A DNA stretch of 64,000 bases, taken from the NCBI RefSeq assembly GCF_057098645.1, contig NZ_CM169472.1; one strand, written 5' to 3'. Made by a program: the position numbers. This document shows, in pieces, positions 42,001-48,000 of this stretch. Each line of letters opens with the position of its first letter. Positions within the stretch are counted from its first letter, which is position 1.

Positions 42001-45000
42001 CCGAATGGAACCATCAACCATTGTGCCAGGCGTGTCATAACCAGAAAACGAAATGGCTTGATCCGGCAACAAAAAGCAAGCGTGCCGCAGGTGGATTTCA
42101 TGAAGAGGAAGAACGGGCCGCTAACCGCAATAACTGGATGTATGACGCTGATGAATGAGCGGGAACAAAACCGCCTTATCCGTGGACTTATAAGGCAGCG
42201 TGACGCATGGAAGACACAGGAAACAGGGCATAAAGATAAAGCGTCAGGACGCGCAGAACGCATCACAGCGAAGCGATTAACCGACCGTGACCGCGAGGTT
42301 ATGGAATGTTTCCGCAATCGCTGATGAGGCTGTATGACGGGGTGGGGGGCGTTTTCAGGACAAACCCGACCCCGCCGGGCACCGAACGCCTCCTCAAATT
42401 TTTATGCACGGGAATTTTTTGAAAAATAATCTGACGAAAAATAAGCATGGCAAGACCACCGAAAGCCCCCGCCTACCTGGATGATATCGCCGTGAAGCAG
42501 TGGCGGGAAAAATCGCGGCAGCTTGCGGAACGGGGAGACCTGACCCCCGCCGACTGGAGCAATCTGGAACTGTATTGCGTCAACTACTCCATTTACCGGA
42601 AAGCCGTTGCAGACCTTGCGGCGCGCGGGTTCAGCATTGTTAACAGTCAGGGCGGCGAGAGCAGAAACCCCGCATTAAGCGCAAAATCCGACGCTGAAAG
42701 AGTGATGATAAAAATGGCCTCCTTGCTCGGTTTTGACCCGATAAGCCGCCGTAAAAATCCACCGGAAACAGAAGAAGAGGACGAGCTTGACCGCCTGGAA
42801 TAAGTACGCAGAAGACGTAAAAACGGGCAAAATTCCGGCCTGTAAACGGTTAAAACAGGCTGTTAAACGGTACTTTTCGGACCTTAAAAGCCCCCTTTAC
42901 ACGTTCGATCGTGAGGTTGTGGAGCGGTTTATTGCCTTTTCCAGGGTGTGCCCGCACGTAAAAGGACCGATGCGTGGCAGACCCATTGAGCTGGAGCCGT
43001 GGCAGCAGTTCGCCTTTGCGTGCATCCTCGGCTTTAAGGTTAAGGCCACCGGACGGCGCAAATACACGAGCGCCTTTATCGAAGTGCCGCGCAAAAATGC
43101 GAAATCCACGACCGCCGCGATTCTGGCTAACTGGTTTCTGATTATGGAGAACGGTCAGCAGGATATCTACACCGCAGCGGTGAGCCGTGACCAGGCGCGG
43201 ATCGTGTTTGATGATGCGCGTCAGATGTGCCTTTTATCCCGACCGTTACGCAGGCGGGTGAATATTCAGGCGCATAAGGTGATACACCCGAAAAGCAACA
43301 GCCTGTTAAAGCCGCTGGCAGCAAAAGCGGCAACCATCGAGGGGACAAACCCCAGTCTTTCCATCGTGGACGAATACCACCTACACCCCGATAACGGCGT
43401 TTATTCCGCGCTTGAGCTGGGGATGGGCGCACGTCCCGAAGGGCTGTTATTTGCCATTACCACATCGGGCAGTAACGTCGTTTCAGCCTGTAAACAGCAC
43501 TATGATTATTGCTGCCAGATCCTGGACGGCGAAGAGGTCAACGATTCAATTTTTGTACTGATTTACGAACTGGACGACGAAAACGAGGTTGATGATCCGG
43601 CGATGTGGATAAAGGCGAACCCTAATATTGATGTTTCCGTGGATCGTGAAAAACTGGCCTCAACCATCCAGAAAGCGCGGGGTATTCCGTCGCAGTGGGT
43701 GGAGATGATGACAAAGCGATTTAATATCTGGTGTCAGGGGACTACCCCGTGGATGGGTAATGGTGCATGGGCTGAGTGTGCCGGAACGTTCACGGAGGAA
43801 GATTTACACGGTCAGGAGTGTTACGCGGGGCTGGACTTATCATCAACCAGCGATATTTCCAGCGTATGCTATGCCTTTCCGGTCGGTAAAACCATTATGC
43901 TGGTTTCCCGTCATTATCTGCCGGAGTTCCAGCTACAGAACCCCGCCAATAAAAACCGCGCTGTCTATCGTCAGTGGGCTAAAGCAGGCTGGATACGCAC
44001 AACGCCTGGCGACTGCATTGATTACGACCGGATCAGAGATGACATCATGCAGGACGCGGAGAAATTTAATATCAGGCTGGTGGGCTTTGATACGTGGAAC
44101 GCCACGCATCTCAGAACGCAATTACAGGGGGCAGGTTTTGAGGTGGAGCCGTTCCCGCAAACCTACCTCAGATTCAGTCCGGCGGCGAAATCGTTCGAAG
44201 TTTTTGTTAACCGCAGGGTGATTGTGCATCGTGGCGATCCGGTGTTGTCCTGGTCGATGAGTAACGTCGTGATGCAGAGTGACGCGAACGCCAATATCAA
44301 GCCGAACAAGAAAAAATCACCGAACAAGATAGACCCGAGCGTGGCGGCGCTGATGGCGTTTGGTACATTCCAGGCAGAGCATGAGGATTTTGCTTTTGAT
44401 ATAAGCGACAGCCACCGCCAGAAACTGGAAGAATTTAGCGGGGTGTAATGAGGTCAGCAGCATGACAGAAGCCGAAATAACGGGATTAATCCGCCGCGTT
44501 GCCGGAATCAGCCAGCAGGCTGACGAACAGGCCACGCAGCCGGACAGCGTGACAGCCGAAAACTATGCGCGTGTTGTTGCTGAGGTGATGCGCCGTGATG
44601 GTATAGAACTTAATGGCGTGGATATGCGCAACATACGAACCAGAGTTCTTTAGTTGCTGGCCTACCGTCGCCGCGTGGAGATGTATCGGGAGAAGGAGAA
44701 AATAACGTACCACTGGAAGAAGCCGGAGCGGTTGCGGCGGTAACTGGTTGATATTCCCGACGGCCCAAAAATGGGTTGGCTACACCCCTCACAACTACGA
44801 CATTTTCGCAGTTTAATTAATGGTCAGCTTAATCGCTAACCCGCTGATATTTTAGGAAACCTCAATTTGAGGAAGTCGGCGCGGTAACTTGCTGAACTTT
44901 AAGCAAAGCGCAAAATTGCGCTTGCTGAATAATCATTATGATTACGCAGATGATTAAGGAATGACCGAAGGCGGAAATTCGCCTGTGGTTAATGGGGGAG

Positions 45001-48000
45001 TTGCAGATCTGCAACTCGACCATGAAACTACGGAAACTACCCGTAGTTTGGGTAGTAAGAGTAACACCCAGATTTTGGGGCTTACTCGTGATACCCAAAT
45101 TTGGGGTATCGGTGGCAACCATAACGACTTTCGTTACGGTTGATGCTTTTACCCCATTGGGGGAAAGGTATTACGATAATCATAACACCTACCGAACAGG
45201 TAAAGCCCACCAGCCTGATTAACGTTTAACCGGAAAAAAATTCCGGTAGGTGGGGATCCCCATATAGACATTAACGCCCCTCATGAATTGGTGTGCTTCC
45301 CCCTGGAAAGATGATCCGCCTGTATATTTCTTGTGTCTATTTGTTCCACGTTGTTTCATACAGTGCACCGAACGGTGTAGTCACTGGTGTAGTCATTTTG
45401 CGATTTTTGGCACTTTTTGTGGTGTTAATTATTTAATTAAATCAATGTGTTATGCGAAATAAGTTATATATAACAGCAATAAATAATGCGAGAATAAACG
45501 GCACGATGATCTCGGCGGCAAAACGGATACCGCAGAGAATAATGACCAGCATTCCCAACATAATGACGATTTTTAGGCCATTGAGCGTGATGATCGGCTT
45601 TGCCATGCTTGTCCCCGTTTTTTCTTCCTTTGCTAATAATAATGTCTTTTTCGCTCCGTCATCATAACGAAAATCAAACCGCTCAGGTAAAGAAGTGAAA
45701 ATATTTTGAGTTAATTCTTAAGCTATGATACAAATCAGGCGTGTTCAACTACCGAGGACAATTATCATCCGCGATGACGAGAAGCAACACTGCGGATAAT
45801 TGTAATATTATGGACAATTTGTTCAGGACGTTATTTTCTACATTTACCCATCTTCGTACCTCATCCACTATCTTGCTCGTAGGTGAGCAGCACTGGCGCA
45901 ACGCGCTTTAGTCCTTTCTTCTGCCAAAGCTTGCGCTAAGCGCGGGGCTTGACCACTTTACTTTGGTTTCGCTGAATTAAGCGAAAATTAAAATAATTCT
46001 CTTGCAGGAGAAGGACAATGTATATTTATTGGATTTTATTAGGTCTGGCTATTGCTACAGAAATTACCGGTACGCTGTCCATGAAATGGGCGAGCGTCAG
46101 TGAGGGAAATGGCGGTTTTATTTTAATGCTGGTGATGATTTCTCTGTCGTATATATTTCTCTCTTTCGCCGTTAAAAAAATCGCCTTAGGCGTAGCTTAT
46201 GCGCTGTGGGAAGGTATCGGTATTTTATTTATTACCTTGTTTAGCGTTTTGTTATTCGACGAAAGTTTATCGCTGATGAAAATTGCCGGGTTAACCACCC
46301 TGGTCGCCGGGATTGTGTTGATAAAATCAGGTACCCGTAAAGCGCGTAAACCTGAACTGGAGGTGAACCATGGCACAGTTTGAATGGGTTCACGCCGCCT
46401 GGCTGGCATTGGCAATCGTGCTGGAAATCGTTGCTAACGTCTTTTTGAAATTTTCTGACGGCTTTCGTCGCAAAATATTTGGCTTGCTCTCCCTGGCGGC
46501 GGTGCTGGCTGCCTTTAGTGCGCTTTCTCAGGCCGTTAAAGGGATCGACTTGTCTGTCGCTTATGCATTGTGGGGCGGGTTTGGTATTGCCGCCACGTTA
46601 GCCGCAGGTTGGATCTTGTTTGGTCAACGGTTAAATCGTAAAGGCTGGATTGGCCTGGTCTTGCTGTTGGCTGGAATGATCATGGTGAAACTTGCCTGAT
46701 GAAGACGCTGCCCGCGCTGTCGGGCAGCGTTTGAACATTATTTTTGCGACAGTTGATCCAGCTTGTCGCGAAAACCGGTAACAGAAATGGCCCGGTTATC
46801 GGCGCGCCAGCGATCTTTCGCGGCAGGAGCCGAACTTTGCACCCCAATTAATTGCCAGCCGTCATCGGTATGCAACATCAGAGGCGAACCGCTGTCACCC
46901 GGCAAGGTATCGCACTGATGTGACATCACCGACGTTTGCGCCCAGCCAGTCACTTCACAGTTTTGATGACTGTACAACGTATCGAGATGATCTTCAGGGT
47001 ATCCTGCCTGAGTCACTTTACGACCTGCCGCTTTTAATGCGGCGGTAAGCGCGGCTTTATCTCCCTCAAATAACGGCAACGGTGTAATGCCAGAAGGGGG
47101 ATTACGTAGCACAATCAATCCGAAGTCCCACGGCGCGGCTGCGGGAGGTATAATCCAACCATCCCCATCTGCTTTTAACCTCTTTCCCAGTGTCGGATCA
47201 ACGCGGCCTTCTATGTCGTGGATGTCATAGCGCCAAAGACCTTTATTTGACACAAAACGCAGCGCCACTGCTTTATCGGCTTTACCCTTTGGAGGTGTCA
47301 ATAAACAGTGTCCTGCCGTTAATGCCAGATTGGGTGCAATCAGCGTCGCCGTACATAAATTGCCGCTGGCCGTTTCCAGTTGCCCAACCGCATCCCACGG
47401 TGATTGGGTCGTGTCATTCACTGGCACACGATCATCATGACCAAAAAACAGGGTGCTAACCTCATCGTTTGCCGATTTGGCAACGTCTGGTTTATCTGCA
47501 AACACAAAAGCAGACGTCAAACTAATTGCACCCAACACTACAGCAATGGTTGTACGCATATCACACTCTGGTGGGTAATTATGATTATTAAAAGCAAACC
47601 CTCATAAATACTATAGACGGGACGGGATGAAAGTGGGAGTAAAATCAGATAACTACAGTCAGGAAAGATAAAAACGGGCGGCAATCAGTGCGCATAAAAT
47701 AAGGATGATAAGAATGAACTCAAAGCGATAACGGCCCACCATACTACCCTCCGCTAAAGGCGGTGCTAAACGTTACCCGCTTAGCACCGTAATTTTCAGG
47801 CGCGAGGGGGCGCGCCAGCATTACTGTTGAAAACTTATGCTGCGGGTTGTGCAGCAGGTTTTGCCGGTTGCTGATGGCTGTGTTTCCCGGCGTGTTTCTT
47901 CGCTGCCTGCGCTTTTTGTTCAGGGGCTTTCTGTTCAGCTTTCGTATTTTTATGATGCTTTTTAGCCGCCTGCGCTTTCTGGGCAGGTGCTGCTTTATGC

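What the first reader, a model, noticed from the sequence alone, without database searches (positions are those of the whole stretch)
44870..45260. Palindrome-dense non-coding block between terL and the satellite right end
About ten short perfect or near-perfect palindromes and hairpins are packed into roughly 400 bp with no convincing ORF. The density is far above background. Candidate roles are integrase/excisionase or IHF binding near attR, a packaging or initiation site that becomes adjacent to int after circularisation, or a structured RNA.
Basis: seen in the sequence. Interest (0 to 1): 0.45.

Follow-up and report, generated by a model that had tools for sequence, protein, structure and literature searches.

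The report
Hairpin and IHF-box array ending a satellite
The palindrome-dense stretch is real: it is a conserved, non-coding module that closes the last operon of many E. coli phage satellites (PICIs), built from repeated IHF-type boxes, short co-varying hairpins and a nearly invariant 113-base core, and no paper or database checked here describes it or gives it a function.

Summary
The window holds 8 perfect hairpins (stem at least 7) in 400 nt, against a mean of 0.34 and a maximum of 3 elsewhere. Fold z-scores are -8.6 and -9.3.

The block runs from 44741 to about 45267. It lies in a capsid-forming PICI, between the stop codon of a small ORF after terL and the integrase-specific arm of attP.

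It has three parts:
- Directional units: a box matching the IHF consensus YAANNNNTTGATW, then 10-11 nt, then a short palindrome whose arms co-vary.
- A 113-nt multi-hairpin core, more conserved (95%) than the adjacent gene (88%).
- Further hairpins.

The block occurs with at least 5 integrase/att types, 3 replicon types and 2 packaging types. It is therefore not an Int/Xis site, a cos site or an origin.

It matches no Rfam family, holds no conserved ORF and appears in none of the papers searched. Pairing is selected. Which strand matters is unresolved, and many palindromes are perfect through the centre.

My best reading (about 0.35) is a BIME/RIP-like end-of-operon boundary that works through host factors (IHF, RNA hairpins) and insulates attP, the int promoter and flanking DNA.

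The attR and packaging ideas are not.

The parts
44462..44743 (+). Small ORF (93 aa when intact, phrog_1561, unknown function), the last gene of the rightward operon. In this window it is cut by a TAG at 44651-44653.
   Evidence: Homologues ending ...WKKPER(L/R/V)RR* follow terL in Pluralibacter and Intestinirhabdus.
44741..44778 (+). Unit 1. The box TAACTGGTTGATATT is a strict match to the IHF consensus YAANNNNTTGATW, and its TAA is the stop codon of the small ORF. The hairpin CGGCCCAAAAATGGGTTG follows.
44793..44813 (.). Imperfect hairpin AACTACGAcatTTTCGCAGTT. It is perfect (AAACTACGAAAtTTTCGTAGTTT) in relatives and uses the same AAACTACG heptamer as the core.
44837..44872 (+). Unit 2. Box TAACCCGCTGATATT, an 8-nt spacer (the ATT ending the 15-nt box is counted as spacer in the 10-11-nt figure), then the palindrome CCTCAAtTTGAGG (44860-44872).
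44885..44925 (+). Unit 3. Degenerate box TAACTTGCTGAACTT, then the palindrome AAGCGCAAaaTTGCGCTT (44906-44923, extended 44903-44925).
44930..44944 (.). 15-bp palindrome TAATCATtATGATTA. Relatives carry TGGTCATaATGACCA or TGGTGATaATCACCA, which differ by symmetric changes.
44970..44983 (.). Near-palindrome GGCGGAAATTCGCC. Other islands have the perfect form GGCGGAATTCCGCC.
44998..45110 (+). Conserved core. It holds a 20-bp perfect palindrome (44998-45017); four 9-mers GAAACTACG / GAAACTACC / CGTAGTTTG / GGTAGTAAG (45024-45059) that form two overlapping hairpins; the hairpin GAGTAA..CCCA..TGGG..TTACTC (45059-45087); and the hairpin GATACCC..GGGTATC (45090-45110).
   Evidence: Shared at about 95% with Rpp-type islands. 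39 of 58 unique blocks carry it. Mean identity is 95.1% against 87.6% for the adjacent ORF. Consensus fold.
45116..45168 (.). Two more hairpins: CAACCATAACGA ctt TCGTTACGGTTG (45116-45142) and CTTTTACCCC a TTGGGGGAAAGG (45146-45168).
45186..45262 (.). Distal hairpins: CACCTACCG/CGGTAGGTG (45186-45194 with 45244-45252), ACCGGAA aaaaa TTCCGGT (45229-45247) and the palindrome TGGGGATCCCCA (45251-45262). A Chi octamer in - orientation lies at 45207-45214.
45268..45455 (+). Not part of the block: the integrase-specific P arm of attP/attR. It holds the arm-type repeats GGTGTAGTCA x2 (45374-45395), a candidate int promoter TTGGCA-17-TATTTA (45407-45435) and an IHF consensus on the - strand (45440-45452).
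   Evidence: The junction was placed by comparing islands that have other integrases.

Best explanation
The block is a cis-acting, non-coding boundary module of the PICI backbone. It sits at the end of the long rightward operon, just before attP.

Its units pair a host IHF-type box with a short hairpin-forming palindrome. The conserved core adds four or five more hairpins.

Proposed mechanism (inferred):
- The block is transcribed as the untranslated tail of the terL/small-ORF message. The hairpins form there, block 3' exonucleases and attenuate read-through.
- IHF bends the DNA at the boxes and adds a protein roadblock or architectural boundary.
- Many elements are true palindromes, so they would act on both strands.
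- The net effect is insulation. After excision, the strongly expressed late operon would be kept from running across attP into the int promoter and int. In the chromosome, the island and its neighbours would be shielded from each other's transcription; here a truncated tqsA 5' end points into the island.

This is how E. coli BIME-1/RIP elements (REP palindromes plus an IHF site at operon ends) are thought to work.

Shown: the anatomy, selection for pairing, enrichment of the IHF consensus, and independence from Int, Rep and terminase types. Inferred: transcription, IHF binding and the insulating effect.
For: 1. The density and thermodynamic signal are far above chance.
2. Pairing is selected. 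In 16 units of the AAGCGCAA family the covariation score is 0.372 against 0.165 +/- 0.03 in shuffles (0 of 500 reach it), with 17 cells changed on both sides. In 17 units of the CCTCAA family it is 0.488 against 0.111 +/- 0.034 (0 of 500), with 20 such cells. Slid controls reach at most 0.107. One stem position reads G-C, U-A or C-G, the last in a Pasteurellaceae unit.
3. IHF-consensus boxes number 63 on the + strand and 2 on the - strand in 52 unique blocks, about 47-fold above the rest of the same loci. The variable positions 5-7 fall inside the consensus's unspecified NNNN (positions 4-7); position 4 itself is conserved as C. The hairpin follows after a modal 10-11 nt.
4. The position is constant, directly after the last ORF. 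The box overlaps the stop codon in E. coli and starts 1 nt after the terL stop in Xenorhabdus. Where accessory genes follow, the block stays with the operon end and not with attR.
5. The block occurs with cf-PICI and Rpp packaging modules, with three iteron types and with at least 5 int/att types. Only host factors or a common backbone factor can read it.
6. The core is more conserved than the neighbouring gene in 451 of 496 pairs.
7. int is transcribed rightwards from the left end. A promoter-like site sits in the right-end arm. On the excised circle the block therefore lies just upstream of attP, the promoter and int.
8. L002-type blocks end in two canonical terminator-like hairpins.
9. P4 has its alpha-operon terminator and crr in the same position relative to attP and int.
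Against: - The window's own block contains no strict intrinsic terminator on either strand. Terminator-like hairpins show no strand asymmetry across blocks (33 against 26).
- No promoter or transcript evidence is available.
- G.T against A.C mismatches are 20:14 and 11:6, which is not significant. Only the core hints at the + strand, with three G.U positions against one A.C.
- 47% of unique hairpins are palindromic to within 2 nt of the centre, against 33% in shuffles. That fits DNA-level symmetry better than ordinary RNA hairpins.
- The core is conserved in its loops and linkers and its few changes are mostly not compensatory (2 of 35 pairs). This points to sequence-specific recognition, which a generic boundary does not need.
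- IHF binding was not tested.
Confidence: 0.35

Rival explanations
1. A DNA-level architectural or replication-accessory site. An IHF-bent nucleoprotein array with extrudable palindromes would serve as a gyrase or supercoil-management site, or as a crr-like helper of replication on the excised circle.
For: - The IHF-consensus boxes are enriched.
- There is an excess of palindromes perfect through the centre and no strand bias in wobble pairs.
- The position matches P4 crr, between the operon end and attP.
- Islands of the GCGGGTTA replicon type carry a second iteron/AT-rich cluster exactly here, between two copies of the core.
- The islands encode their own SSB.
Against: - The block in this window has none of its own iterons. 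TGTTCACC-type islands have none either.
- The palindromes are short (5-11 bp arms), which is poor for cruciform extrusion (from general knowledge).
- Nothing identifies a gyrase site.
Confidence: 0.2
2. A functional structured RNA. It could be a trans-acting or sponge RNA cut from the 3' end of the late transcript, or cis RNA sites (linear box, spacer, stem-loop, like nut sites) bound by a protein such as the Arg/Trp-rich C-terminal helix of the small ORF.
For: - The stems co-vary.
- The unit architecture is a conserved linear motif, a 10-11-nt spacer, and a 5-7-bp stem with an A/U-rich centre.
- One-sided changes in the core give G.U on the + strand at three positions.
- The core is highly conserved, loops included.
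- The neighbouring ORF has an invariant Trp and a basic tail.
Against: - There is no Rfam match, no internal promoter and no terminator bounding the core.
- The core is not complementary to anything else in the window beyond chance.
- Xenorhabdus islands have the units without the small ORF.
- The pattern of conserved and variable positions in the box mirrors the IHF DNA consensus.
- boxA (GCTCTT) is absent.
Confidence: 0.15
3. A recombination linker. It would be a conserved junction sequence, helped by Chi sites and palindromes, kept because it lets islands swap integrase/att modules against packaging modules. It would have no role in the life cycle itself.
For: - The same core joins different left and right modules.
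- The region is mosaic and cassette-like, with duplications.
- A Chi octamer lies directly before the core in L002- and L007-type blocks and inside the window's block.
- The island is Chi-rich, with 16 in 14.3 kb against 5 in 49.7 kb outside.
Against: - A linker does not need hairpins, and covariation of the arms across paralogous units shows selection for pairing.
- The unit type is kept from Escherichia to Xenorhabdus and Pasteurellaceae with quite different sequences.
Confidence: 0.1
4. Selfish or neutral palindromic repeats (REP- or MITE-like) that pile up in the only sizeable non-coding part of the island.
For: Units are tandemly duplicated and vary in copy number, from 0 to 5 boxes per block. 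The content is mosaic.
Against: - The repeats are not dispersed in the chromosome. Matches are confined to island contexts, with a median of 1 place per genome.
- The core is more conserved than the adjacent gene.
- 54 of 58 unique blocks keep at least 4 hairpins.
Confidence: 0.07
5. One reading: Int/Xis binding sites of attR, or a packaging (cos/pac) site.
For: The block is close to the right end and to the terminase genes, and IHF-like boxes are present.
Against: - The arm-type repeats and the integrase-specific sequence begin only at about 45268.
- The block is shared across integrase types.
- cosN of Rpp-type islands is elsewhere (PMC9026076).
- There is no cosN-like sequence in the block.
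Confidence: 0.04

Closest known systems
E. coli BIME-1 / RIP (RIB) elements: REP palindromes flanking an IHF site at operon ends
   Same: Short palindromic units are interleaved with IHF-consensus sites. They lie extragenically, directly after the last gene of an operon, vary in copy number and are mosaic. Pairing potential is kept while the sequence varies.
   Different: There is no sequence similarity to REP Y/Z units. The units are not dispersed over the chromosome but confined to satellites. The order is box then palindrome in tandem, not REP-IHF-REP in inverted order. A long, sequence-invariant core is added.
Phage P4: t-alpha terminator plus crr (cis replication region) between the alpha operon and attP
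   Same: The position on the circular map is the same: operon end, then non-coding block, then a pair of Int arm repeats, the core, a second pair of arm repeats, then int. Islands with GCGGGTTA iterons carry a second iteron cluster at this place.
   Different: P4 crr is made of alpha-protein iterons (TGTTCACC) in two 120-bp repeats. It has one hairpin and no IHF-box array. The window's block has none of its own iterons.
Lambda nut sites (boxA, spacer, boxB hairpin)
   Same: The architecture is alike: a conserved linear box, a fixed short spacer, then a 5-7-bp stem with an A-rich centre. Hairpin sequences differ between copies.
   Different: There is no boxA sequence. The units lie at the end of an operon, not the start, and are repeated in tandem. 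The box follows the IHF DNA consensus. No N-like protein has been shown.
Correia / ERIC-type intergenic palindromic repeats with IHF sites
   Same: These are small palindromic repeats that carry an IHF site and fold in transcripts, affecting mRNA processing and stability (from general knowledge).
   Different: Those are dispersed, MITE-like elements with terminal inverted repeats of 26 bp or more. Here the elements are island-specific and much shorter.

Membership tests
REP/BIME (RIP) elements | Palindromic units matching the REP consensus (about 35 bp, with a conserved GTAG/CTAC end) | tested here: not met
   The units are 13-20-bp palindromes of unrelated sequence. This is judged against the REP consensus from memory.
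REP/BIME (RIP) elements | Hundreds of copies dispersed in extragenic regions of the chromosome | tested here: not met
   The 751-nt query matches 1722 places in 1362 of 5426 genomes, with a median of 1 per genome. Every locus inspected was an island context.
REP/BIME (RIP) elements | IHF site associated with the palindromes (BIME-1) | tested here: inconclusive
   Consensus matches are enriched about 47-fold and are adjacent to the palindromes. IHF binding cannot be tested with these tools.
attP/attR arm (Int, Xis, IHF sites) | Arm-type integrase repeats inside the element | tested here: not met
   GGTGTAGT x2 lies at 45374-45395 and 31240-31261, outside the block.
attP/attR arm (Int, Xis, IHF sites) | Sequence co-varies with the integrase/att type | tested here: not met
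   The same block and core sit next to at least 5 different arm/att sequences: tqsA, cspD-clpS, hpt, a tRNA gene, and the GTGTGGTCAG and GTTAACATGTTAAC types.
cos / pac packaging site | cosN or a terminase recognition site adjacent to terS/rpp | tested here: not met
   An exact lambda cosN lies at L002:10725, upstream of rpp and 1.3 kb from the core (PMC9026076). No cosN-like match falls in the block.
PICI replication origin / P4 crr | Iterons of the cognate initiator flanking an AT-rich stretch | tested here: not met
   The window's iterons AAGTGGGGAG lie at 36674-36868, directly after rep, and none is in the block with up to 1 mismatch. L001 has TGTTCACC iterons only after the primase gene.
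Known RNA families (Rfam 15) | Covariance-model match | tested here: not met
   There is no hit at E up to 1 in 43500-46500. There is none in the blocks of four variant loci.
Intrinsic terminators | GC-rich hairpin followed by a U tract | tested here: not met
   The window block has 0 strict sites on either strand. L002-type blocks do end with terminator-like hairpins.
Lambda-type nut site | boxA (CGCTCTTA) upstream of a boxB hairpin with a GNRA-like pentaloop | tested here: not met
   GCTCTT is absent from the block. The hairpin centres are AAAATT, AAU or AUU.

The most novel reading that the evidence does not exclude
The units are RNA sites of a nut-like kind (linear box, 10-11-nt spacer, short stem with an A-rich loop). 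They would be read by the conserved Arg/Trp-rich C-terminal helix of the adjacent small ORF, or by N-type proteins of helper phages. On the excised or concatemeric island, transcription complexes crossing the block would then be modified and run through attP into int and the early genes. That would be a satellite-encoded antitermination or helper-sensing device.
Probability: 0.07. Interest if true: 0.8.

Novelty: new variant of a known kind. Interest (0 to 1): 0.5.

Why it matters
PICIs are intensively studied satellites that move virulence and defence genes. Part of this block is present in about a quarter of complete E. coli genomes (1362 of 5426).

Its core is the best conserved stretch at the right end of the island, better conserved than the neighbouring gene. 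Yet none of the PICI papers read here mentions it.

The block is independent of the integrase, initiator and terminase types, so it is a candidate for a shared, host-factor-dependent step in the satellite life cycle. It may set the end of the late transcript, shield int and attP on the excised circle, or organise the DNA.

It also matters practically:
- Engineered PICIs used as delivery vehicles would keep or lose it unknowingly.
- The nearly invariant core is a convenient marker for finding such islands.

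Tried and rejected
- Rfam scans of the window and of four variant loci found nothing.
- The tRNA/tmRNA scan found nothing.
- The phage database gave no match for the block and only chance-level 35-nt hits for the units.
- Promoter and terminator scans found no internal promoter and no strict terminator in the window's block.
- Coding potential: there are no Pfam hits and the ORFs are not conserved.
- The neighbouring small ORF was a dead end. It has no Pfam match, sits in PHROG 1561 of unknown function, forms a narrow orphan family and models as a helical hairpin with no structural match.
- Lambda cosN is not in the block.
- The cognate iterons are not in the block.
- The core is not complementary to the rest of the window beyond chance.
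- The wobble-based strand test was not significant.
- A sigma-54-like match before the core in L002-type blocks is produced by the Chi octamer. It is absent in the window type, so I rejected it on reading the sequence.
- TAATCATTATGATTA resembles a Fur box in part, but its variants (TGGTCAT.., TGGTGAT..) do not, so I rejected that too.
- GGA (CsrA-type) motifs occur at the chance rate by hand count.
- The first genome-contig scan, using small-ORF peptides, returned nothing.
- Searching papers for the core sequences found nothing.
- P4 has no comparable box-and-hairpin array.

Full report
**Context**

The window is E. coli chromosome carrying a capsid-forming phage-inducible chromosomal island (cf-PICI). 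A near-identical annotated copy (L001, 99.5%) has this order: integrase, HTH regulator, primase, SSB, major capsid, protease, portal, head-closure and connector proteins, HNH, P27-family TerS, TerL, a 93-aa hypothetical protein, about 700 bp without genes, then a truncated tqsA.

In the window:
- int is at 31265-32515.
- TerL is at 42787-44448.
- The small ORF is at 44462-44743. It carries a TAG at 44651 where relatives have GAG.

Yes. Hairpins with a perfect stem of at least 7 bp and a loop of at most 8 nt number 8 in 400 nt here. The mean over the window is 0.34 (sd 0.75) and the maximum elsewhere is 3. The stretch 44740-45290 folds with z = -8.6 on the + strand and -9.3 on the - strand. The overlapping ORFs have no family match and are intact in only 11-13 of 58 unique related blocks. 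No Rfam family, tRNA or phage-database match exists.

**Extent and anatomy**

The feature starts earlier than reported, at 44741, and ends near 45267. It has three kinds of element.

1. Directional repeat units. A box TAAC-NNN-YTGAT-ATT is followed after a modal 10-11 nt by a short palindrome. The window has three units, with boxes at 44741, 44837 and 44885. Other islands have up to five in tandem with a period of about 55 bp. The first box overlaps the stop codon of the small ORF.
2. A core at 44998-45110. It holds a 20-bp perfect palindrome, four 9-mers built on AAACTAC (two direct, two inverted) and two further hairpins.
3. More hairpins up to TGGGGATCCCCA at 45251-45262.

**Comparative evidence**

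I collected about 100 E. coli-type loci from IMG/VR with two DNA anchors. I collected 80 cf-PICI loci from other genera with TerL.
- Of 58 unique regions downstream of the small ORF, 55 have at least one box, 54 have at least 4 hairpins (stem at least 6) in the first 500 nt, and 39 carry the core.
- The region is mosaic, with cassettes swapped, duplicated or deleted.
- The core is better conserved than the neighbouring gene. Mean pairwise identity is 95.1% against 87.6%, and the core is higher in 451 of 496 pairs.

**Selection for pairing**

Homologous palindromes differ by symmetric changes. Examples are TAATCAT/ATGATTA, TGGTCAT/ATGACCA and TGGTGAT/ATCACCA, and also CCTCAA, CCTGCA and CCCCCA with matching right arms.

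On alignments of paralogous and orthologous units the covariation score is 0.372 against 0.165 +/- 0.03 in one family and 0.488 against 0.111 +/- 0.034 in the other. No shuffle of 500 reaches either value, and slid controls reach at most 0.107. One stem position is G-C, U-A or C-G, the last in a unit from a Pasteurellaceae genome.

The unit type also occurs in Xenorhabdus cf-PICIs. There the box begins 1 nt after the terL stop and the hairpins have unrelated sequences.

**The box**

The box matches the IHF consensus YAANNNNTTGATW (Craig and Nash, from memory). The freely varying positions 5-7 fall within the N positions of the consensus; position 4 is conserved as C, beyond the consensus.

In 52 unique blocks the strict consensus occurs 63 times on the + strand and 2 times on the - strand, 1.88 per kb. 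In the remaining 397 kb of the same loci it occurs 0.04 and 0.03 times per kb. The loci are related and the units arise by tandem duplication. The counts therefore overstate independence, and the orientation bias may be historical.

**What it is not**

- Not the Int/Xis part of attR. The arm-type repeats GGTGTAGT x2 lie at 45374-45395, with a second pair before int at 31240-31261. Comparison with islands carrying other integrases puts the switch to integrase-specific sequence right after 45262-45267. The block is found beside at least five att/arm types.
- Not cos. In Rpp-type islands an exact lambda cosN lies upstream of rpp, 1.3 kb from the core. This agrees with published cos maps (PMC6739421, PMC9026076). 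In this island cos is expected in the GC-rich hnh-terS gap (inference from HNH-dependent cos phages).
- Not the origin. This island has AAGTGGGGAG iterons around AT-rich DNA directly after rep, at 36674-36868, as described for PICIs (PMC6092414). None is in the block. Relatives use TGTTCACC or GCGGGTTA iterons.

The block thus co-occurs with two packaging systems, three replicons and several integrases. This argues that it is read by host factors or by a common backbone function.

**RNA or DNA?**

This is unresolved.

For RNA on the + strand:
- It would be the 3' tail of the operon.
- One-sided changes in the core give G.U at three positions (14 cells) against one A.C.
- Units show G.T 11 against A.C 6.

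Against, or neutral:
- Over 67 unique hairpins the count is 20 against 14.
- 47% of 116 unique hairpins are palindromic to within 2 nt of the centre, against 33% in shuffles. Loop-forming RNA hairpins do not require this.
- The core's few changes are mostly not compensatory (2 of 35 pairs; covariation term -0.46).
- There is no internal promoter, and the window's block has no strict terminator.

True palindromes read the same on both strands, which would suit an element that must act in both directions.

**Most likely function**

The closest analogue in composition and position is the BIME-1/RIP class of E. coli: palindromic units plus an IHF site at operon ends.

On the circular map the block lies between the end of the unidirectional operon and attP, followed at once by a promoter-like site in the arm and by int. 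P4 places its alpha terminator and crr in the same spot. In this chromosome a tqsA 5' fragment points into the island from the right.

I therefore favour a boundary or insulator module. Hairpins in the transcript would act on both strands, and IHF-bent DNA would add to the barrier. Confidence is about 0.35.

The rivals, with their weights:
- A DNA-architectural or crr-like accessory, 0.2. This is strengthened by the second iteron cluster lying between duplicated cores in GCGGGTTA-type islands.
- A functional RNA, including a nut-like reading, 0.15.
- A recombination linker with Chi, 0.1.
- Selfish repeats, 0.07.

**Novelty**

None of the PICI papers read mentions this region. The core sequences occur in no searchable paper.

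I rate it a new variant of a known kind: IHF-associated palindromic unit arrays, here specific to satellites and extended by an invariant core.

Noticed in passing
window 44651-44653: The small ORF after terL carries a TAG nonsense codon where L001 and L002 have GAG. In this strain the gene is a pseudogene, or a 63-aa truncation.
   Followed up: partly
window 36674-36868: This is the island's replication origin: six to eight AAGTGGGGAG iterons flanking AT-rich DNA directly after the rep gene (35276-36676). The near-identical right half in L001 is joined to a different replicon with P4-type TGTTCACC iterons, so the two halves have been swapped as modules.
   Followed up: partly
window 31200-45460: The island is very rich in Chi (GCTGGTGG, both orientations). 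It has 16 sites in 14.3 kb (1.1 per kb) against 5 in the other 49.7 kb (0.1 per kb). This may protect rolling-circle or linear DNA from RecBCD in an element that has no Gam.
   Followed up: partly
window 31240-31261 and 45374-45395; 45407-45435; L002:12584-12611: Pairs of integrase arm-type repeats (GGTGTAGT) lie on both sides of the attachment core, as in P4. A promoter-like site in the right-end arm points across the core. int may therefore gain a promoter only on the excised circle.
   Followed up: partly
L034:9562-10080; also L007, L021, L024, L079, L089: Islands whose origin uses GCGGGTTA iterons carry a second iteron/AT-rich/iteron cluster at the right end, nested between two copies of the conserved core. 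This recalls the ori plus crr pair of P4.
   Followed up: partly
window 45463-45606 (- strand) and 29916-31046 (- strand): A 5' fragment of tqsA remains at the right junction and points into the island. A full-length ORF lies left of the island. The island seems to have inserted in the 5' end of tqsA and to supply a replacement start.
   Followed up: no
window 42325-42446: The GC-rich hnh-terS gap (GACGGGGTGGGGGGCG...CCCGACCCCGCCGGGCACC) followed by AT-rich DNA is the likely cos site of this cf-PICI.
   Followed up: no
L034:10084 onward: An IS (inverted repeat GGCTTTGTTGAATAAATCG, IS903/IS5-like) has inserted inside the second copy of the core.
   Followed up: no
L049, L060, L071, L103 (core region): One of the two direct 9-mers (GAAACTACG) of the core is missing. 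The 9-mer array therefore varies in copy number.
   Followed up: no
L132, L133, L144, L152, L171, L174 and other Xenorhabdus loci: Single Xenorhabdus genomes (for example X. kozodoii DSM 17907) hold six or more separate cf-PICI-type TerL loci, an unusually high satellite load.
   Followed up: no
small ORF residues about 68-93 (window 44663-44740): The C-terminal part (YRRR..RRE..YQWKKPERLRR), with an invariant Trp, recalls the arginine-rich RNA-binding motif of lambda N. This rests on memory only and was not tested.
   Followed up: no
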